IMG/VR virus record: IMGVR_UViG_2563366958_000011
DNA length: 14,993 nt
DNA from: a virus
Taxonomy: Duplodnaviria > Heunggongvirae > Uroviricota > Caudoviricetes
Strand: one strand, 5' to 3'
Made by a program: the position numbers and the translations under genes
Shown: positions 3,476 to 14,993 of the stretch, piece by piece
How positions within the stretch are numbered: the stretch's first letter is position 1
How the letters are laid out: each line of letters begins with the position of its first letter
Notes under the pieces: generated by a model
Database searches by the model: none
Told to the model about the DNA's origin: nothing
Seen by the model: only the letters and a program-made list of their open reading frames with translations

Positions 3476-3679
3476 ATGGCTAATTACAATTCATTAATTC
3501 GTCTCTCTGAAGTTCAAAGGCGAACTGGTTATAGCAAAGCATGGATTTATCGTCTTATTAGTCAGGGGAGGTTCCCTAAACAGGTAAAAATTGGAAGTCG
3601 GGCAATTGCTTTTGTTGAGTCTGAAATAGATGAATGGATTGAGAAGTGTATATTAGAATCTAGAGACGAGGTGGCCTGA
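3476..3679 (+). CDS. alpA: AlpA-family phage/island transcriptional regulator (excisionase-like HTH), 67 aa
   Basis: Sequence LIRLSEVQRRTGYSKAWIYRLISQGRFPKQVKIGSRAIAFVESEIDEWI matches the AlpA/prophage regulatory protein pattern (HTH then a conserved W/E tail). AGGA about 10 nt upstream of the ATG. Confidence 0.85.
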   Translation: MANYNSLIRLSEVQRRTGYSKAWIYRLISQGRFPKQVKIGSRAIAFVESEIDEWIEKCILESRDEVA

Positions 3680-5131: not shown

Positions 5132-5598
5132 CCGTCCAGAAGAAGATATTTTCACTGGCTGGTATGTCACCAAAATCCAGCAATATGACAGCAAAGTCTG
5201 GCATTAATACAGCAGATACAAGCAAAGTTTATCATTTTCTGGTGGTAGGAGCGGATGCCTTAACTATGTCAGAAATTACGGTCGATGGTGTTAGCGTTGA
5301 GAAGGTCAGCGGCTGCGCCAGAGAATTTCTGGTCGTAGATGGCTTTCTCTGCTCGCGTAGTGACTCCACAAAAACCTTCGTCCATACGCGCGACGTTAAC
5401 GAAATGAGCGCGATGTATTGTGCATCTGGTGCTTCCAATACTGAGTTTTCGGAGTCCATAAAAAAGAGCTTGCCGTTATGCGGCAACACGGTTTATGGTT
5501 ATAAGGCACCTCATAAAACGGGTGCCGGGATTGGCGTCCTGAAAATTCTGAAGGCGACATATGACGCGCCGGGTGATGCTGCCAACTTACTGATTTAG
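5125..5598 (+). CDS. hypothetical protein; last 8 codons and stop are supplied by the IS1 left end, so the native 3' end is interrupted
   Basis: ATG 5125 with GGAGG at 5113-5117, coupled to the upstream gene (ATGCTAA). Frame enters IS1 at 5572 and terminates at the IS1 TAG (5596-5598). Native C-terminus unknown. Confidence 0.5.
5563..5571. repeat. IS1 target-site duplication, left copy (GACGCGCCG)
   Basis: The identical 9-mer recurs immediately after the IS1 right end at 6340-6348. Confidence 0.9.
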
Positions 5599-5626
5599 TG
5601 TATGATGGTGTTTTTGAGGTGCTCCA

Positions 5627-5902
5627 GTGGCTTCTGTTTCTATCAGCTGTCCCTCCTGTTCAGCTACTGACGGGGTGGTGCGTAACGGCAAAAGCACCGC
5701 CGGACATCAGCGCTATCTCTGCTCTCACTGCCGTAAAACATGGCAACTGCAGTTCACTTACACCGCTTCTCAACCCGGTACGCACCAGAAAATCATTGAT
5801 ATGGCCATGAATGGCGTTGGATGCCGGGCAACAGCCCGCATTATGGGCGTTGGCCTCAACACGATTTTACGTCACTTAAAAAACTCAGGCCGCAGTCGGT
5901 AA
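5627..5902 (+). CDS. insA: IS1 InsA (zinc-finger transposition regulator), 91 aa
   Basis: [22 protein letters not shown]...CSHC zinc-finger N-terminus; canonical InsA. Confidence 0.95.
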
Positions 5903-6324
5903 CCTCGCGCATACAGCCGGGCAGTGACGTCATCGTCTGCGCGGAAATGGACGAACAGTGGGGCTATGTCGGGGCTAAATCGCGCCAGCGCTGGCTGTTT
6001 TACGCGTATGACAGGCTCCGGAAGACGGTTGTTGCGCACGTATTCGGTGAACGCACTATGGCGACGCTGGGGCGTCTTATGAGCCTGCTGTCACCCTTTG
6101 ACGTGGTGATATGGATGACGGATGGCTGGCCGCTGTATGAATCCCGCCTGAAGGGAAAGCTGCACGTAATCAGCAAGCGATATACGCAGCGAATTGAGCG
6201 GCATAACCTGAATCTGAGGCAGCACCTGGCACGGCTGGGACGGAAGTCGCTGTCGTTCTCAAAATCGGTGGAGCTGCATGACAAAGTCATCGGGCATTAT
6301 CTGAACATAAAACACTATCAATAA
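5821..6324 (+). CDS. insB: IS1 InsB frame (transposase made as an InsAB' fusion by -1 frameshift at the A6C site)
   Basis: ORF in the -1 frame relative to insA, overlapping its 3' end. AAAAAAC slippery motif at 5878-5884. Coordinates are from the first in-frame ATG of the ORF track. Confidence 0.9.
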
Positions 6325-6339
6325 GTTGGAGTCATTACC

Positions 6340-6408: not shown

Positions 6409-6563
6409 CAGCGCCTTTGTCAATCAATGGTGGCTCAGGCGGGGGCTTCTTCGGAAGCGCCGGTATCCTTCAGAGCCGGTTACGCCAACCCTGTCTGGGC
6501 TACCACCAGCGAAATTGGCGTTTCCGGTGGTAGCGTAACCTGCTATCTGAAGGAGGCTGCCAC
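6409..6563 (+). promoter_or_regulatory. structured 5' leader (possible regulatory RNA) upstream of the first small gene
   Basis: Hairpin gcttc-UUCG-gaagc at 6445-6458 and a 9-bp stem gctaccacc/ggtggtagc at 6499-6507 and 6526-6534 with an 18-nt loop. Ends at the AGGAGG SD (6551-6556). Confidence 0.3.
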
Positions 6564-8581: not shown

Positions 8582-8945
8582 AAATGCAGAAATGGCGCTT
8601 AGCTCCGCAATCGGAGAGCAGGTGGCAAAGATTGCTGGTGCTGTGTGGATTCATAACCTTCATTCTACTGGTGAAGAGAAAATGGCAATTCAGACGCCAG
8701 AGGGACGCACCATTACTACATCTCTGAAGCCGTCAGATGTTTGTGATCTGATTTGCGCATTCATGTACCCAGCAATGAGGACTGTCCACGGCGATAAGTG
8801 GAAACTTGCGACAACCGCTGAATTTGATATGTGGCTAAACAATGATGGCATGCTGACTGATTACGGAATAACCAAGTGGCAGATGCTGGTTAGCCATATC
8901 GCAAACGCTATAGACCACGTGGGGTACGGTGATGCGAAACATTGA
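8574..8945 (+). CDS. hypothetical protein, 123 aa
   Basis: ATGCGTGA overlap with the upstream gene. 3' end overlaps the primase start by 14-17 nt. Confidence 0.65.
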   Translation: MRENAEMALSSAIGEQVAKIAGAVWIHNLHSTGEEKMAIQTPEGRTITTSLKPSDVCDLICAFMYPAMRTVHGDKWKLATTAEFDMWLNNDGMLTDYGITKWQMLVSHIANAIDHVGYGDAKH

Positions 8946-11688
8946 TCTTATCCGTCAGGTTATCAGTGCGTCTGAAAACAACTGGCCTCATGTGCTGGGC
9001 TGCCTGAACATAAATGTCCCTGACTCTCCGCGCCGTCATGCTCCCTGCCCTGCATGTGGGGGCAAAGATCGATTCCGGTTCGATGACAACGGGCGCGGTA
9101 GCTTCATCTGTAATCAGTGCGGCGCTGGTGATGGGCTGGATTTAATTAAACGCGTAAATAACTGCGACACAACAGAGGCGGCGCTTCTTGCCGCTGATGT
9201 TCTGGGTATTGATTACCGGACAACGGAAACACCAGAAGCCACCAGCCAGAAACGGGAACAACTGGAAACCGAGCGCCAGCGACGCGAACAGGAGCGCCTG
9301 AAAAGGGCAGAGAAGGACGAACAACAAAGACGGGATACGTTTTCCCGTCAGTTTGATGACATGCGCAGAAAGGCTGTAAACGGCAAATCTGATTATCTGG
9401 TTGCGAAAGGGGTAGGTGATTTTACATTCCCCGTGTTGCCCGATGGATCTCTGTTGCTGGCGCTGGTGGATAAATCCGGCGCAGTCACAGCAGCACAGAC
9501 TATTACATCACATGGTGAAAAAAGACTCCTGACAGGTTCAGCAAAGCGGGGGGCATATCACGCCATAAACGCGCCAGAAACAACACAGAGCATCTTAATC
9601 GCAGAAGGGCTGGCAACGGCATTATCTGCCCATTTAATTCGTCCAGAGGCGCTGACAGTGGCGGCGATTGATGCCGGGAACCTGTTATATGTCCCCCAGG
9701 TACTGCGGGATAAATTTCCTTCAGCACAAATCATCATTGCTGCGGATAACGACCACAGCGAAGGAAGACAAAACACGGGGAGAATAGCAGCAGAAAAAGC
9801 AGCTTTATCTGTTTCTGGATGGGTGGCATTACCCCCGACAGATCACAAAGCAGACTGGAATGATTACCACCAAAAACACGGCATTAAATGCGCCACAGAA
9901 GCGTTCAATAAGTCAATGTACCAACCACAGGGTAATGGCGTGAAACATGAGCCACAGACCATTGAGGGAAGCGATTTTAAGGTTATGGATACCGACCCAC
10001 TGAAACCAAGAATAGAAAGCCGCGAGGATGGTATTTATTGGGTATCTCCGAGAGCTGACAGCCAGAGTGGAGAAATCATCAATAACGAAAGCTGGTTATG
10101 TTCTCCGTTAAGCGTTATCGGTACTGGCAGAGACGATAAAGACCAGTATCTCATTCTTCGCTGGCTGTCGTTTGGTTCTGAAACGCCGACAACCGCTGCC
10201 ATTCCACTGGCTGATATTGGTGAACGTGAAGGATGGCGCACACTTAAAGCTGGTGGGGTAAATGTCACGACCAAAAGCAGCCTCAGAGCAATACTGGCAG
10301 ACTGGCTACAACGCAGTGGCTCTCGTGAATTGTGGCGTGTTGCTCATGCCACTGGCTGGCAATGCGGAGCGTACATCATGCCTGATGGGGAAATCATCGG
10401 AACACCTGAAAATCCTGTGCTGTTCAGCGGGAGAAGCTCAGCCGCAGCCGGATATACCGTCTCAGGGAGCGCGAAAAGCTGGCGTGATAACGTGGCGCGT
10501 CTGGCCTTTGGTAACTATTCAATGATGACCGGGATCGGCGCAGCACTGGCAGCGCCATTGATTGGGCTGGTGGGCGCTGACGGGTTCGGCATTCATTTCT
10601 ATGAGCAGTCGAGCGCAGGTAAGACCACCACGGCAAACGTGGCGAGCAGCTTATACGGCAACCCTGATTTACTGCGGCTGACGTGGTACGGAACCGCGCT
10701 GGGGCTGGCAAATGAGGCCGCCGCCCACAATGACGGACTAATGCCGCTTGATGAAGTTGGTCAGGGCGCTGATCCTGTCAGCGTTTCACAGTCTGCCTAT
10801 GCGTTATTTAACGGTGTAGGGAAACTGCAAGGCGCTAAAGATGGTGGAAACCGGGATCTAAAACGCTGGCGTACAGTGGCAATCAGCACCGGAGAAATGG
10901 ATTTAGAAACATTTATCGCTACTTCCGGGCGAAAAACCAAAGCCGGGCAACTGGTGCGACTGCTGAATATTCCGTTGAGTAAAGCAGTACGCTTTCACGA
11001 TTACCAGAACGGAAAACAGCACGCAGACGCACTGAAAGACGCTTACCAGCATCACCACGGCGCGTCCGGGCGTGAGTGGATTAAATGGCTGGCAGACCAC
11101 CAGCAACAGGCTATTAAAACCGTTCGTGACTGCGAAAGCAGATGGAGAAGCCTGATCCCATCCGATTATGGTGAGCAGGTTCACCGTGTAGCCGCGCGAT
11201 TTGCCATTCTGGAGGCCGCATTGTTGTTAGGCGAGGTTGTAACAGGCTGGGATGCTCAGACATGCCGTGATGCGATACAGCACAGCTATAACGCATGGTT
11301 GCGCGAGTTCGGCACAGGTAACAAAGAGCATCAGCAGATTATTGAACAAACGGAGGCATTTCTTAATGCCTATGGGCTTAGCCGTTTTGCACCATTTCCA
11401 TACAGCCCGGCAGATTTGCCCATCAAAGATTTAGCCGGATACCGTCAGCGTGGAGAACATGACGAAAGCCCAATGATTTTCTACACATTCCCGGCCACAT
11501 TTGAAAAGGAGATCGCATGTGGTTTCAACGCAAAACAGTTTGCTGAAGTGTTGAAAAAAGCCGGGATGCTAACCCCACCAAACAGCGGTCGTGGATACCA
11601 AAGAAAATCACCACGTATTCAGGGACGACAAATAAACGTTTATGTACTCAATTACCAGCCAGGAGATTATAACTCATCTGAAGAATGA
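8929..11688 (+). CDS. DNA primase-helicase (P4 alpha-like): zinc-ribbon + TOPRIM primase + Walker-type NTPase, 919 aa
   Basis: N-terminal CPACGG...RFRFDD...CNQCG zinc ribbon. TOPRIM-like motifs ILIAEG and IIAADNDHSEG. C-terminal Walker A-like QSSAGKTT and Walker B-like MPLDEVGQ. Track start is GTG 8929; ATG 8932 is the likelier start. Confidence 0.9.
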   Translation: MMRNIDLIRQVISASENNWPHVLGCLNINVPDSPRRHAPCPACGGKDRFRFDDNGRGSFICNQCGAGDGLDLIKRVNNCDTTEAALLAADVLGIDYRTTETPEATSQKREQLETERQRREQERLKRAEKDEQQRRDTFSRQFDDMRRKAVNGKSDYLVAKGVGDFTFPVLPDGSLLLALVDKSGAVTAAQTITSHGEKRLLTGSAKRGAYHAINAPETTQSILIAEGLATALSAHLIRPEALTVAAIDAGNLLYVPQVLRDKFPSAQIIIAADNDHSEGRQNTGRIAAEKAALSVSGWVALPPTDHKADWNDYHQKHGIKCATEAFNKSMYQPQGNGVKHEPQTIEGSDFKVMDTDPLKPRIESREDGIYWVSPRADSQSGEIINNESWLCSPLSVIGTGRDDKDQYLILRWLSFGSETPTTAAIPLADIGEREGWRTLKAGGVNVTTKSSLRAILADWLQRSGSRELWRVAHATGWQCGAYIMPDGEIIGTPENPVLFSGRSSAAAGYTVSGSAKSWRDNVARLAFGNYSMMTGIGAALAAPLIGLVGADGFGIHFYEQSSAGKTTTANVASSLYGNPDLLRLTWYGTALGLANEAAAHNDGLMPLDEVGQGADPVSVSQSAYALFNGVGKLQGAKDGGNRDLKRWRTVAISTGEMDLETFIATSGRKTKAGQLVRLLNIPLSKAVRFHDYQNGKQHADALKDAYQHHHGASGREWIKWLADHQQQAIKTVRDCESRWRSLIPSDYGEQVHRVAARFAILEAALLLGEVVTGWDAQTCRDAIQHSYNAWLREFGTGNKEHQQIIEQTEAFLNAYGLSRFAPFPYSPADLPIKDLAGYRQRGEHDESPMIFYTFPATFEKEIACGFNAKQFAEVLKKAGMLTPPNSGRGYQRKSPRIQGRQINVYVLNYQPGDYNSSEE

Positions 11689-11711
11689 GCTTCTTCATGT
11701 GCGTAGAAAAG

Positions 11712-11826
11712 GTGTTGGTTCAGTTGGTTCAGTTGGTTCAATTTGTAAAGAGTATTGTTTTATAAGGATTTTATTCTTTTTATTGAACCAACACTGAACC
11801 AACAACACGGTATTTTGAACCAACAC
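11712..11826. repeat. iteron cluster, putative replication origin: three tandem GTTGGTTCA and three inverted TGAACCAAC(AC) copies flanking a 43-bp AT-rich spacer
   Basis: Direct 9-mers at 11714-11722, 11723-11731, 11732-11740. Inverted copies at 11784-11792, 11795-11803, 11816-11824. AT-rich spacer 11741-11783. Immediately 3' of the primase-helicase gene. Confidence 0.6.
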
Positions 11827-12144
11827 AATGTGACTGAATTGATGCGCACAACACCTGGCTGGCATCAGAGAGTGTTTTACGAGACTTTCGTAAAATCCTG
11901 TGTACAAGGGCGTGACGTTTTTGAAAGTGAGCACTACGAAATTTTCGTAGTTCAGAAAACAGCCTCTGAGAAGTTGTTATGCCTGTTCAGCAAACCATCC
12001 GCATAGCTGATCGCGAATCAAATTACCAATGGAGCCAGAAGCAAGGGCAGAACTGAAAAGCGCCTGCCGTGAAGAGTAATGCGACACCATAAATATAGTT
12101 TTTAGAGTCCATAAAAAACCTGTCAAAACCTGACACACAGAACG

Positions 12145-12178
12145 ATGCCACCAGCTACTGAGCGGTGGCATTTTTTTT
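12145..12178 (+). terminator. rho-independent terminator (7-bp GC-rich stem, extended by 3 inner pairs, followed by T8)
   Basis: tgccacc (12146-12152) pairs with ggtggca (12164-12170); inner pairs 12154-12156 with 12161-12163. TTTTTTTT at 12171-12178. Confidence 0.7.
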
Positions 12179-12197
12179 GTGCTATTTGTTTCATATT

Positions 12198-12246
12198 TTG
12201 CAATTACGATGATGAATATTGCGATTTGTGAAACTATAATAACTGT
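12198..12246 (+). promoter_or_regulatory. putative promoter/operator of the small RHH-like gene (-10 TATAAT at 12235-12240; inverted repeat GCAAT-N13-ATTGC at 12200-12222)
   Basis: Consensus -10 hexamer about 35 nt upstream of the ATG. The adjacent inverted repeat could be an operator. Confidence 0.35.
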
Positions 12247-12273
12247 TGTTTTATACAGTTCTAAGGGGGCGTT

Positions 12274-12435
12274 ATGGCTATTTCAGTAAAGCCGGTATTG
12301 ATAAGTGAGAAGCAAATGGAAGCGATAAAGAAAATTCAGGAAGAGCAGCGTAAAAAATCAGGAATTGGAGTAGCGCCAACTCTGCATGAAATTGCACGAG
12401 GGTTAATAGATAAGGCGCTGGCAGGCTGTATGTGA
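12274..12435 (+). CDS. small protein, 53 aa, predicted ribbon-helix-helix-like DNA-binding fold (below the ORF-track size cutoff)
   Basis: AAGGGGG SD at 12263-12269, ATG 12274, stop 12433-12435. MAISVKPVLISEKQMEAIKKIQEEQ...APTLHEIARGLIDKAL shows a strand-helix-helix pattern; the fold assignment is inferred. Confidence 0.55.
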   Translation: MAISVKPVLISEKQMEAIKKIQEEQRKKSGIGVAPTLHEIARGLIDKALAGCM

Positions 12436-12451
12436 AAATGGATGGCATCGC

Positions 12452-12808
12452 ATGGAACTAAAATTTATTGATAACCCTGTGCGATTACAGGCCTTTCTTA
12501 ACGAGCCAGGCAATACCGAAAATATTGTTGAGCCGGGGCACACGTACTACATCAAGCCTGATGCGGTATATCTCGGCATCTACGAAGGATTAGTGCTGGC
12601 TGGCGTTCATGAAGTGCGTAACTTCTGGCATAGCGTTGTTGAATGCCATGCGGTGTACGACCCCGGATTCCGTGGTGAATATGCACTGCAAGGACATCGA
12701 TTATTCTGCAAATGGCTTCTCGAAAACTCACCATTCCTTAACAGCATTACCATGGTTCCTGACACCACGAAATACGGACGGGCAATTATCCGTTTGCTTG
12801 GCGGGTGA
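12452..12808 (+). CDS. hypothetical protein, 3' end truncated by IS1 copy 2 (stop codon lies inside the IS1 left end)
   Basis: ORF begins 17 nt after the RHH-like gene. TGA at 12806-12808 belongs to the IS1 terminus GGTGATG, so the native C-terminus is missing. Confidence 0.55.
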   Translation: MELKFIDNPVRLQAFLNEPGNTENIVEPGHTYYIKPDAVYLGIYEGLVLAGVHEVRNFWHSVVECHAVYDPGFRGEYALQGHRLFCKWLLENSPFLNSITMVPDTTKYGRAIIRLLGG

Positions 12809-12858
12809 TGCTGCCAACTTACTGATTTAGTGTATGATGGTGTTTTTGAGGTGCTCCA

Positions 12859-13134
12859 GTGGCTTCTGTTTCTATCAGCTGTCCCTCCTGTTCAGCTACT
12901 GACGGGGTGGTGCGTAACGGCAAAAGCACCGCCGGACATCAGCGCTATCTCTGCTCTCACTGCCGTAAAACATGGCAACTGCAGTTCACTTACACCGCTT
13001 CTCAACCCGGTACGCACCAGAAAATCATTGATATGGCCATGAATGGCGTTGGATGCCGGGCAACAGCCCGCATTATGGGCGTTGGCCTCAACACGATTTT
13101 ACGTCACTTAAAAAACTCAGGCCGCAGTCGGTAA
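12859..13134 (+). CDS. insA: IS1 InsA, copy 2
   Basis: Translation identical to copy 1 InsA. Confidence 0.95.
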
Positions 13135-13556
13135 CCTCGCGCATACAGCCGGGCAGTGACGTCATCGTCTGCGCGGAAATGGACGAACAGTGGGGCTATG
13201 TCGGGGCTAAATCGCGCCAGCGCTGGCTGTTTTACGCGTATGACAGGCTCCGGAAGACGGTTGTTGCGCACGTATTCGGTGAACGCACTATGGCGACGCT
13301 GGGGCGTCTTATGAGCCTGCTGTCACCCTTTGACGTGGTGATATGGATGACGGATGGCTGGCCGCTGTATGAATCCCGCCTGAAGGGAAAGCTGCACGTA
13401 ATCAGCAAGCGATATACGCAGCGAATTGAGCGGCATAACCTGAATCTGAGGCAGCACCTGGCACGGCTGGGACGGAAGTCGCTGTCGTTCTCAAAATCGG
13501 TGGAGCTGCATGACAAAGTCATCGGGCATTATCTGAACATAAAACACTATCAATAA
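13053..13556 (+). CDS. insB: IS1 InsB frame, copy 2
   Basis: Translation identical to copy 1 InsB. Confidence 0.9.
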
Positions 13557-13566
13557 GTTGGAGTCA

Positions 13567-14316
13567 TTACCCAAATGCCGCAGCCCCCTCTGGATCCGCC
13601 TTTAACATTTGCGCGTATTGATTGTAATTCTGCATTGCGGCTGTTGGTGCATATGCTGACGTTAACGCATTTGCTCGGCTAATATCCTGCCCTCTCGCCT
13701 GAAGTGCTTCTCCGGCTTGATTGCTGCGGATCGTCTCTGCCAACTTGCCACGCTCAATATCCCGACCTTCCATTCGATCTTTGATATCGAAGTACTTCTC
13801 ATGACCGAGAGAAAACAGTGCCATACTACCAGCAAGCCGCTGGAATCCCTGTGGATCATTAACATGCATTTCGGCAACAGACTCAGGAGAAATTCCCAAA
13901 CGACGCATTTCATCTTCGTTATCTGCTATGAATTTTCCAAATGCCCCAGTTCCGAGCGAAGATGCGATTTGAGCACTAGTCGCAAGATGACCAATAGAAT
14001 TTCTCTGGTCGTCATCAATAAAGCCCATCCCTTTCTGAACGCTTTCAAATTCTTCTGGATACTCAGAAATAAGACTGCGCATTTTGTTTCTGTCTCCAGA
14101 CTCAAAAGCCCCGGCATATGCTTTCTGAAACTCTGCTTTACGCTGTTGTTGACGTGCCTGCTGATTAATCTCAGCAACGCCTCTTAGCCCCTGTAGCGCC
14201 ATTAAACCTACGTTTGGCTGCTGCTGATACTGCACAGGCTGAGGAACGGAAGAACGAGGAGCATTATCATTTTGCGGTGCCATGCTAGGCAGCCCGCCAA
14301 GTTGCCATGTCGCCAT
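13567..14316 (-). CDS. hypothetical Gln/Pro-rich protein, 249 aa; stop codon supplied by the IS1 right terminus, so probably C-terminally truncated
   Basis: Minus-strand ORF whose TAA (13567-13569) lies inside the IS1 end sequence. Start overlaps the upstream gene by 1 nt (TAATG), indicating an operon. Confidence 0.6.
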   Translation of the reverse strand: MATWQLGGLPSMAPQNDNAPRSSVPQPVQYQQQPNVGLMALQGLRGVAEINQQARQQQRKAEFQKAYAGAFESGDRNKMRSLISEYPEEFESVQKGMGFIDDDQRNSIGHLATSAQIASSLGTGAFGKFIADNEDEMRRLGISPESVAEMHVNDPQGFQRLAGSMALFSLGHEKYFDIKDRMEGRDIERGKLAETIRSNQAGEALQARGQDISRANALTSAYAPTAAMQNYNQYAQMLKADPEGAAAFG

Positions 14317-14993
14317 TAGAATCCAAGCCCCCCAACAAGACCAATAAGCCCACCACCAATAGCCCCGGCGACATTACCTATACCCGGAACAACGGAACCA
14401 AGTTGCGCACCCGCTAAAGCGCCTGATGCCGCCCCACCAATACCACGCGCAAGACTGGATGGCTGCTGCGCCTGACCTGCACGAATAGCGCCAAGCCCCT
14501 GCAAGAGTTGTCCGGTATTATTGGCGTAGTTTTGCCCTGCTGTTGCCTGCCCTGATGCCGCATTCATCCCGACATTTAGCAGGTTTCCATAATTTTGCAT
14601 TTGCCCACTGAGCCAATTGTTATAAAGCATGGGCGCAATGGAAGATAACTGGTTACTGGTAGCTGTTGAGCCAAGCCCCCCGGTAGCTTCTGCTGAGACA
14701 AGGTTCTGATAACGGGCCTGATCTGCCTGTGTTTTATATAAACCAGAACCAAAGAAATCATTCGCGGCTTTATTCTGCCCTTCCAGAGTCATCAGTCCTT
14801 GTAGTTGTTGTAAAGCAGGCAATCCGACTTCTGCATACGGCTTGAGATTATTCATCACCGTATTCCACTGCTCGCGCTGCAAATCAATTGCCTGCTGCTG
14901 GGCCTTCGCCTGAGCTTTAGAGGCACCACCATCACCGCCTTTTTCGTATACGGCACGATTGAGATGTTTATAAGCTATATGGGTAATTAACAT
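14316..14993 (-). CDS. hypothetical Gln/Asn/Gly-rich protein with a C-terminal glycine-zipper hydrophobic segment; N-terminus may lie beyond the window edge
   Basis: Minus-strand ORF reaching the window end. C-terminus GIGGAASGALAGAQLGSVVPGIGNVAGAIGGGLIGLVGGLGF looks like a membrane-inserting glycine zipper. Possibly a phage ejection or structural protein, or a bacteriocin-like protein; family not recognised. Confidence 0.55.
   Translation of the reverse strand: MLITHIAYKHLNRAVYEKGGDGGASKAQAKAQQQAIDLQREQWNTVMNNLKPYAEVGLPALQQLQGLMTLEGQNKAANDFFGSGLYKTQADQARYQNLVSAEATGGLGSTATSNQLSSIAPMLYNNWLSGQMQNYGNLLNVGMNAASGQATAGQNYANNTGQLLQGLGAIRAGQAQQPSSLARGIGGAASGALAGAQLGSVVPGIGNVAGAIGGGLIGLVGGLGF

What the first reader, a model, noticed from the sequence alone, without database searches (positions are those of the whole stretch)
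11679..11830. Iteron origin immediately 3' of the primase gene, upstream of a strong terminator
Seen: a 7-bp inverted repeat spanning the primase stop (11679-11697); 3 tandem GTTGGTTCA repeats; a 43-bp AT-rich spacer; 3 copies of the same 9-mer in inverted orientation (two as the 11-mer TGAACCAACAC). Inference: iterons bound by the primase-helicase flanking a DNA-unwinding element, i.e. the island ori. The terminator at 12145-12178 lies beyond it, so operon transcription would pass through the origin.
Basis: partly seen in the sequence, partly recalled or inferred. Interest (0 to 1): 0.45.

Follow-up and report, generated by a model that had tools for sequence, protein, structure and literature searches.

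The report
Phage-satellite island replication origin (iterons)
The repeats just after the primase-helicase gene are very probably the replication origin of an E. coli phage-satellite island (a Gram-negative PICI), a layout already described for such islands, so this is a well-supported but ordinary example.

Summary
GTTGGTTCA occurs three times in tandem (11714-11740) and three times inverted (11784-11824), around a 43-bp spacer with 16% G+C. The first copy lies 26 nt after the stop of a 918-aa Zn-ribbon/Toprim/DUF927 primase-helicase. The 9-mer occurs nowhere else in the window.

The island has a tRNA-Thr attachment site, an integrase, AlpA, an antirepressor zone with a C4 RNA, the primase and P22-like late genes. 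That makes it a Gram-negative PICI. Published work already places PICI origins immediately 3' of pri-rep, as two iteron sets flanking an AT-rich region.

In 76 Enterobacterales species, the C-terminal motif [YF]QRKSPR goes with at least three GTTGGTTC copies after the stop in 42 of 43 loci, against 1 of 33 loci without the motif. Alleles with other C-terminal segments have other iterons in the same layout. The modelled C-terminus most resembles the SaPI Rep initiator and a winged-helix oriT binder.

Caveats:
- The hairpin across the stop codon is no better than chance.
- Intact relatives carry a mirror-image second iteron cluster in front of perC, which this window lacks.
- This copy of the island is damaged by IS1.

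Novelty: a new member of a known kind.

The parts
8932..11688 (+). Primase-helicase (Pri-Rep) gene, 918 aa. It has a Zn ribbon (CPAC...CNQC, residues 39-63), a Toprim domain (E225, DND 272-274), a DUF927 helicase (P-loop SAGKTT 561-566, DE 606-607) and a C-terminal DNA-binding region.
   Evidence: Pfam: PF08273, PF13362 and PF06048. PHROG 1139, DNA primase, E 1e-177. Motifs. phmmer against the PDB hits 8tch (SaPI replication initiator), E 1.5e-11.
11521..11649 (+). Coding region for residues 864-906, the predicted winged-helix-like recognition segment. YQRKSPR is residues 889-895, nt 11596-11616.
11679..11697 (.). 7-bp inverted repeat across the stop codon; probably chance.
   Evidence: z -1.9, and 10 of 200 shuffles fold as well. 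Not conserved in relatives.
11714..11740 (+). Left iteron set: three tandem GTTGGTTCA copies with a 9-bp period.
   Evidence: Copy number is 2, 3 or 4 in near-identical strains.
11741..11783 (.). 43-bp AT-rich spacer (16% G+C), the presumed DNA-unwinding element.
   Evidence: In 42 species the spacer has a median length of 45 bp (measured between 8-mer cores) and a median A+T of 78%.
11784..11824 (-). Right iteron set: three inverted copies at 11784-11792, 11795-11803 and 11816-11824, spaced 11 and 21 bp.
   Evidence: The same 11/21-bp phasing is seen in relatives that have different iteron sequences.
11842..12143 (+). Non-origin spacer module. It contains a 54-aa ORF (11842-12006) that looks like a remnant of a P22-like anti-repressor, and two TACGA-N5-TCGTA palindromes (11878, 11935). 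The part from about 11871 onward is shared with islands that have a different replicase.
12144..12178 (+). Strong intrinsic terminator closing the replication-gene transcription unit.
   Evidence: -24.4 kcal/mol, z -6.7. Also called by the pattern scan.

Best explanation
Window 11714-11824 is the primase-proximal replication origin of a Gram-negative phage-inducible chromosomal island (PICI) integrated at tRNA-Thr. The island's own 918-aa primase-helicase is the initiator. Its C-terminal winged-helix-like segment (around YQRKSPRI, residues 889-896) reads the 9-mer GTTGGTTCA. Initiator assemblies bind the three tandem copies on one side and the three phased inverted copies on the other. They melt the 43-bp AT-rich spacer between them and load themselves as helicases, and the Zn-ribbon/Toprim domain makes the first primers. 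Shown here: the anatomy, its conservation, and the covariation between protein segment and iteron. Inferred: binding, melting and self-loading (by analogy with SaPI Rep and P4 alpha), and read-through transcription from the primase operon up to the terminator at 12144-12178.
For: (1) The six copies are exact, all within the 111-bp stretch 11714-11824, and above chance. The spacer has 16% G+C.
(2) Island context: tRNA-Thr, integrase, AlpA, AntA/Ash zone with a C4 RNA, Pri-Rep, and late genes. This matches the published GN-PICI layout, in which the ori lies downstream of pri as two iteron sets flanking an AT-rich region. The EcCICFT073 pri-rep-ori module was shown there to be functional (PMC6092414; PMC10111431).
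(3) The same layout follows the Pri-Rep genes of EcCICFT073 (GTCTACC-type iterons) and EcCIRM13514 (TGTTCACC-type).
(4) All nine E. coli DUF927-primase alleles examined have iterons starting 21-32 nt after the stop, with one of six different cores.
(5) Natural 'swaps'. L011 shares with the window only the DNA for the C-terminal two-thirds of the primase plus the ori, and it has the same iteron. L010 is 94% identical in the neighbouring helical bundle but reads QGRV-RE instead of QRKSPRI, and it has GTTGTCTCA.
(6) A prediction made in advance held: a Providencia protein with QRKSPRI is followed by GTTGGTTCA/GTCGGTTCA iterons.
(7) Survey of one genome per species: the motif goes with at least three GTTGGTTC copies in 42 of 43 loci, against 1 of 33 without the motif (Fisher p 4e-19, not corrected for phylogeny). 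Both orientations are present in 42 of 42, and the first copy is at a median of +26.
(8) Islands with a DUF5906 replicase share the downstream DNA but carry their own iterons (CCTGTACCACC) next to that gene.
(9) In a diverged copy (L003) the 9-mers are exact while the spacer and flanks have drifted.
(10) The C-terminal model resembles SaPI Rep and TcpK. SaPI Reps bind iterons through a C-terminal winged helix (PMC9371898).
(11) A 12,152-bp circular record (NZ_CP148430.1) is a complete relative of this island carrying the same ori. This is compatible with an extrachromosomal form.
Against: There is no experimental evidence for this element. The structural model is only moderate (pLDDT 73.8; Foldseek E 0.15 for the best hit). 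The covariation statistics ignore shared ancestry. This copy of the island is damaged: IS1 sits in the Ash gene and in the gp14-like gene, and one segment is inverted. It also lacks the second iteron cluster that intact relatives carry, so the site may not fire in this genome. One QRKSPR locus (L075) showed no iterons after the stop, and neither did a Salmonella relative with a different C-terminal segment, on a short contig (L020).
Confidence: 0.82

Rival explanations
1. It is an origin element, but only one half of a two-part origin and not sufficient alone. The functional origin needs the mirror-image cluster B, which lies next to perC in intact islands and is contiguous with cluster A in compact relatives. 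The window copy would then be a non-firing relic.
For: Cluster B exists in cq9 (L001 22257-22377, 8.1 kb away), in the 12-kb circular record (L026 8436-8556) and in O111:H8 (L003). Compact relatives have both halves within about 300 bp, with 11-12 iterons. Most E. coli genomes with the island match the query at two places. From my own knowledge, P4 needs both ori and crr in cis.
Against: Short forms with only five or six iterons, followed directly by ssb, occur beside intact primases (L014, and many species: the patterns '++---' and '+++---' account for 17 of 42 loci). Published PICI and SaPI origins need only two sets flanking one AT-rich region (PMC6092414, PMC9371898).
Confidence: 0.25
2. 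The repeats are operators. The primase, or another island regulator, binds them to control transcription, for example read-through into downstream genes or promoters beside the repeats, and they are not used to start replication.
For: In relatives, cluster B ends 17 nt before a TATAAT that precedes perC or ssb. Initiators of iteron plasmids often autoregulate through such repeats (my own knowledge).
Against: The consensus scan calls no promoter at cluster B or in the long-form ori, nor on the + strand around cluster A. The fixed AT-rich spacer between opposed sets, at a fixed distance from the initiator gene, is the published origin layout. The equivalent EcCICFT073 region was needed for replication (PMC6092414). 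A regulatory role could coexist with origin function.
Confidence: 0.06
3. It acts as a structured RNA or DNA hairpin (an attenuator, a processing site or a cruciform), because the two repeat sets can pair.
For: As RNA, 11708-11830 folds at -50.2 kcal/mol, z -8.7.
Against: The arms are out of register: tandem copies at 9 bp against inverted copies at 11 and 21 bp. Copy number changes on one arm only, from 2 to 4. Spacing differs between clusters while the 9-mer units stay exact. There is no T-run after the structure. Rfam gives only a meaningless sub-threshold match there.
Confidence: 0.03
4. It is a packaging (pac/cos) site or a partition site recognised by a terminase small subunit or a ParB-like protein.
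For: Such sites can be made of short repeats. Some PICIs carry terS.
Against: No par or terS gene was found among the window ORFs that I scanned. The repeats covary with the primase C-terminus and move with the replicase gene, not with the late-gene module.
Confidence: 0.02

Closest known systems
Gram-negative PICI origins, e.g. EcCICFT073 pri-rep-ori (Fillol-Salom et al. 2018, PMC6092414)
   Same: The island type is the same (int, alpA, pri-rep, unidirectional genes). The ori lies immediately 3' of pri-rep, as two iteron sets flanking an AT-rich region.
   Different: The initiator family differs: here a 918-aa Zn-ribbon/Toprim/DUF927 protein, against the 584-aa 'DNA primase family protein' of CFT073. 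The iteron differs: GTTGGTTCA against CTGTCTACC. The cargo is P22-like ejection genes instead of capsid genes. I could not see that paper's Fig. 2a, so I cannot say whether a DUF927-type origin is drawn there.
SaPI Rep/ori of Staphylococcus aureus (PMC9371898; PDB 8tch)
   Different: The iterons are 9-mers rather than penta- or hexanucleotides. The primase is of the DnaG/T7 Toprim type and is fused to the helicase. The host is Gram-negative.
Satellite phage P4 alpha protein with ori and crr (my own knowledge; mentioned in PMC6092414)
   Same: The initiator is a fused primase-helicase with a C-terminal iteron-binding domain. In intact relatives of this island there are two iteron clusters kilobases apart, which recalls P4 ori and crr.
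Classical iteron plasmids (pSC101, R6K, P1, RK2)
   Same: An initiator encoded next to repeated binding sites and an AT-rich unwinding element.
   Different: Those origins use 17-22-bp direct repeats in one orientation, a WH1-WH2 Rep protein, DnaA boxes and host DnaB/DnaC loading. Here there are opposed 9-mers, no DnaA box, IHF site or GATC in 11650-11900, and a helicase-primase as initiator.

Membership tests
Gram-negative PICI replication origin | Lies immediately 3' of the pri-rep gene | tested here: met
   The first iteron starts 26 nt after the TGA. The median is +26 in 42 species.
Gram-negative PICI replication origin | [quoted passage not shown] | tested here: met
   Three direct and three inverted copies around a 43-bp spacer with 16% G+C.
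Gram-negative PICI replication origin | Island encodes int, alpA and pri, transcribed in one direction | tested here: met
   Integrase at 1610-2824, AlpA at 3476-3679 and primase at 8932-11688, all on the + strand.
Gram-negative PICI replication origin | A pri-ori fragment drives autonomous replication | not testable with these tools
   There is only a hint: a 12,152-bp circular record of a close relative with the same ori.
Gram-negative PICI replication origin | Helper-phage-dependent induction and packaging | not testable with these tools
   P22-like late genes suggest a Lederbergvirus-type helper. This is inference only.
SaPI-type Rep/ori | Initiator is a self-loading helicase with a C-terminal winged-helix domain | tested here: met
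SaPI-type Rep/ori | Iterons are penta- or hexanucleotides | tested here: not met
   The repeat unit is a 9-mer, extending to an 11-mer in three copies.
P4 ori/crr | Type I iteron TGTTCACC bound by the alpha protein | tested here: not met
   The iteron is GTTGGTTCA. TGTTCACC-type iterons occur instead in EcCIRM13514.
P4 ori/crr | Two cis-acting iteron regions kilobases apart | tested here: inconclusive
   This is present in intact relatives (L001, L026). There is no second cluster in the window. Whether it is required is unknown.
Classical iteron plasmid origin | DnaA box(es) beside the iterons | tested here: not met
   TTATCCACA does not occur within two mismatches in 11650-11900.
Classical iteron plasmid origin | 17-22-bp direct repeats and a WH1-WH2 Rep initiator | tested here: not met
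   The repeats are 9-mers in both orientations, and the adjacent gene encodes a primase-helicase.

The most novel reading that the evidence does not exclude
The cluster at 11714-11824 is one half of a split origin. In the ancestral compact form, two mirror-image units (a tandem trio, an AT-rich spacer and a phased trio) sit side by side after the primase gene. In this island lineage, captured P22-like late genes were inserted between the two units, leaving the second unit 2-8 kb away directly in front of perC. The two halves would then cooperate in cis through initiator-mediated looping, as P4 ori and crr do. Initiator occupancy of the perC-proximal half could tie expression of PerC, a regulator family linked to LEE virulence genes, to island replication.
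Probability: 0.2. Interest if true: 0.5.

Novelty: new member of a known kind. Interest (0 to 1): 0.28.

Why it matters
It fixes the position of the origin, and the likely recognition determinant, for a PICI family found in roughly a tenth of complete E. coli genomes (574 of 5,426 matched the ori-flanking query, which also contains a module shared with islands carrying a different replicase). These islands mobilise accessory and virulence-regulator genes such as perC. The table pairing C-terminal segments with iterons (QRKSPRI with GTTGGTTCA, QGRV-RE with GTTGTCTCA, KKKALxxxGGKQH with (T/A/G)(G/C)GGGTTA, and others) is a ready-made set of predicted orthogonal initiator/origin pairs. It also gives a simple rule for annotating origins in satellites. 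None of this changes current understanding of how such origins work.

Tried and rejected
- Stop-codon hairpin (11679-11697): present, but within chance, so dropped.
- Rfam: nothing meaningful at the ori.
- DnaA boxes, IHF sites and GATC clusters: none found.
- Conserved CTGGCTGG about 165 nt after the stop: seen in some relatives only, and the flanking 9-bp inverted repeat (11655/11854) is within chance. Not pursued.
- Sigma-70 promoter at the iteron clusters: the scan called none.
- P4 alpha origin-binding domain as the closest fold: not among the top hits.
- 'Orphan ori' in O111:H8 (L003): this turned out to be the perC-proximal cluster B of a decayed island at the same tRNA-Thr integrase site.
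- Source genome: no complete E. coli genome has the window's IS1 arrangement.
- Iteron sequences in the PICI paper's supplements: not listed there, and Fig. 2a is not held. EcCIED1a could not be fetched.
- Phage collection: no phage carries this ori, apart from one weak Klebsiella phage match.
Full report
OBSERVATION

The sequence reads as follows after the primase stop codon (TGA, 11686-11688):
- three tandem GTTGGTTCA copies at 11714-11740;
- a 43-bp spacer at 11741-11783 with 16% G+C;
- three inverted copies at 11784-11792, 11795-11803 and 11816-11824, spaced 11 and 21 bp.

All six copies are exact. No other exact copy exists in the window, and none of 200 shuffles reached the observed count. 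The 7-bp inverted repeat over the stop codon exists but is not better than chance: z -1.9, with 10 of 200 shuffles folding as well. It is not kept in diverged relatives. The terminator at 12144-12178 is strong (-24.4 kcal/mol, z -6.7). Nothing terminator-like lies between it and the primase stop on the + strand.

CONTEXT

The window holds an island inserted next to tRNA-Thr (1369-1444). In order, it carries:
- a P4-type integrase (1610-2824);
- AlpA (3476-3679);
- an AntA/Ash 'antirepressor' zone with a C4 antisense RNA (6423-6510, 79.9 bits);
- several small ORFs;
- a 918-aa primase-helicase with a Zn ribbon, a Toprim domain and DUF927, all catalytic motifs intact;
- the repeats;
- P22-like gp14/gp7/gp20 homologues.

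Two identical IS1 copies (5570-6339 and 12802-13571) interrupt the island, and the DNA after the second copy is inverted relative to intact relatives. The layout matches published Gram-negative PICIs: int, alpA, pri, 'an ori downstream of pri', a Bro zone with C4/isrK RNAs, and a zone of captured late genes (PMC10111431). [quoted passage not shown] They showed that the EcCICFT073 pri-rep-ori module maintains a plasmid and that deleting either part reduces this (PMC6092414). I confirmed the same layout after the Pri-Rep genes of EcCICFT073 and EcCIRM13514, each with its own iteron.

COMPARATIVE TESTS

The 661 bp around the repeats match 574 of 5,426 complete E. coli genomes. Within near-identical strains the tandem set has 2, 3 or 4 copies, as expected for slippage in functional repeat units.

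A diverged copy in O111:H8 keeps every 9-mer exact while the spacer and flanks have drifted.

Islands that share the downstream DNA (from about 11871) but encode a DUF5906 replicase have different iterons (CCTGTACCACC) beside that gene. The repeats therefore belong to the replicase module.

All nine E. coli DUF927-primase alleles examined are followed, 21-32 nt after the stop, by the same architecture, with one of six different iteron cores.

The iteron tracks a short C-terminal segment of the protein:
- QRKSPRI goes with GTTGGTTCA.
- QGRV-RE goes with GTTGTCTCA, in an allele that is otherwise 94% identical in the neighbouring helical bundle.
- KKKALGxIGGKQH goes with TGCGGGTTA.
- GWQIRTPRLKH goes with TTGTCCCA.
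- An allele with an unrelated N-terminal part that shares only window 9999-11825 has the window's iteron.

A prediction made in advance held: a Providencia protein with QRKSPRI is followed by GTTGGTTCA/GTCGGTTCA repeats.

In a survey of one genome per species (76 usable Enterobacterales loci), [YF]QRKSPR goes with at least three GTTGGTTC copies within 400 nt of the stop in 42 of 43 loci, against 1 of 33 loci without the motif. Fisher p is 4e-19, but this is not corrected for shared ancestry. All 42 positive loci have both orientations. The first copy is at a median of +26, and the spacer has a median length of 45 bp and 78% A+T.

STRUCTURE

MECHANISM

The most likely mechanism is the SaPI/PICI one:
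1. The C-terminal domain of the primase-helicase binds the opposed 9-mers.
2. The spacer melts.
3. The protein loads itself as a helicase.
4. Its Toprim domain primes DNA synthesis.

Shown here: the anatomy, its conservation and the covariation. Inferred: binding, melting, loading, and transcription through the site. No DnaA box, IHF site or GATC is present, which fits a host-initiator-independent origin. A 12,152-bp circular record that is a complete relative of the island is compatible with an episomal form.

Intact relatives have a second, mirror-image cluster (B). It consists of three copies spaced 21 bp, a 43-bp AT-rich spacer and three tandem inverted copies, directly upstream of perC. 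It lies 8.1 kb from cluster A in strain cq9 and 1.9 kb from it in the circular record. In compact relatives A and B are contiguous (about 300 bp, 11-12 iterons). The window has no cluster B, and its close relative SCU-172 lost that end to IS1. Short forms with only five or six iterons are nevertheless common beside intact primases, so cluster A may be sufficient. This remains open.

RIVALS

- An operator role: the scan finds no promoter at either cluster. Such a role could coexist with origin function.
- An RNA or DNA hairpin: the arms are out of register and vary in copy number on one side only.
- A packaging or partition site: no such genes were found, and the repeats travel with the replicase.

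All three are much less likely than the origin.

VERDICT

The feature is a new member, in a DUF927-type initiator family with a 9-mer iteron, of an already described kind of origin. Interest is modest.

Noticed in passing
window 5570-6339 and 12802-13571; 13572-14993: There are two identical IS1 copies in direct orientation. The first splits an Ash-family gene and an isrK-like RNA match. The second cuts the DUF2824 (gp14-like) gene. The DNA after it is inverted relative to intact relatives, and no complete E. coli genome in the collection has this arrangement.
   Followed up: partly
L001 22257-22377; L026 8436-8556; L003 5008-5137: A second, mirror-image iteron cluster lies directly upstream of perC in intact relatives, 2-8 kb from the primase-proximal cluster. 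It is contiguous with that cluster in compact relatives and absent from the window. This recalls P4 ori/crr.
   Followed up: partly
window 6423-6510 and 5493-5615: There is a C4 antisense RNA (79.9 bits) and sub-threshold a1b1/isrK-like matches. This is P1/P4-style RNA immunity in the antirepressor zone, and its upstream part is disrupted by IS1.
   Followed up: no
window 11842-12260: This module is shared, from about 11871 onward, with islands that have a different replicase. It contains a 54-aa ORF with a 26-residue match to a Lederbergvirus anti-repressor (probably a gene remnant), two TACGA-N5-TCGTA palindromes 57 bp apart, the strong terminator, then a 17-nt dyad and a TATAAT ahead of the late-gene-like operon.
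   Followed up: partly
window 12274-14993; L001 14674-19220: The island's cargo consists of homologues of the P22 gp14/gp7/gp20/gp16 ejection proteins rather than capsid genes. This suggests a P22-like helper and possible tampering with DNA ejection.
   Followed up: no
NZ_CP148430.1 (L026), CP031370.2 (L027): Small circular 'plasmid' records (12-22 kb) in E. coli and Klebsiella are whole PICI-like islands with integrase, antirepressor and this type of ori. They are probably excised episomal forms deposited as plasmids.
   Followed up: partly
L002 3115-3150; L028 12353-12370; window 11714-11740: The tandem iteron copy number differs (4, 2 and 3) between strains whose primase genes are 99-100% identical.
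   Followed up: yes
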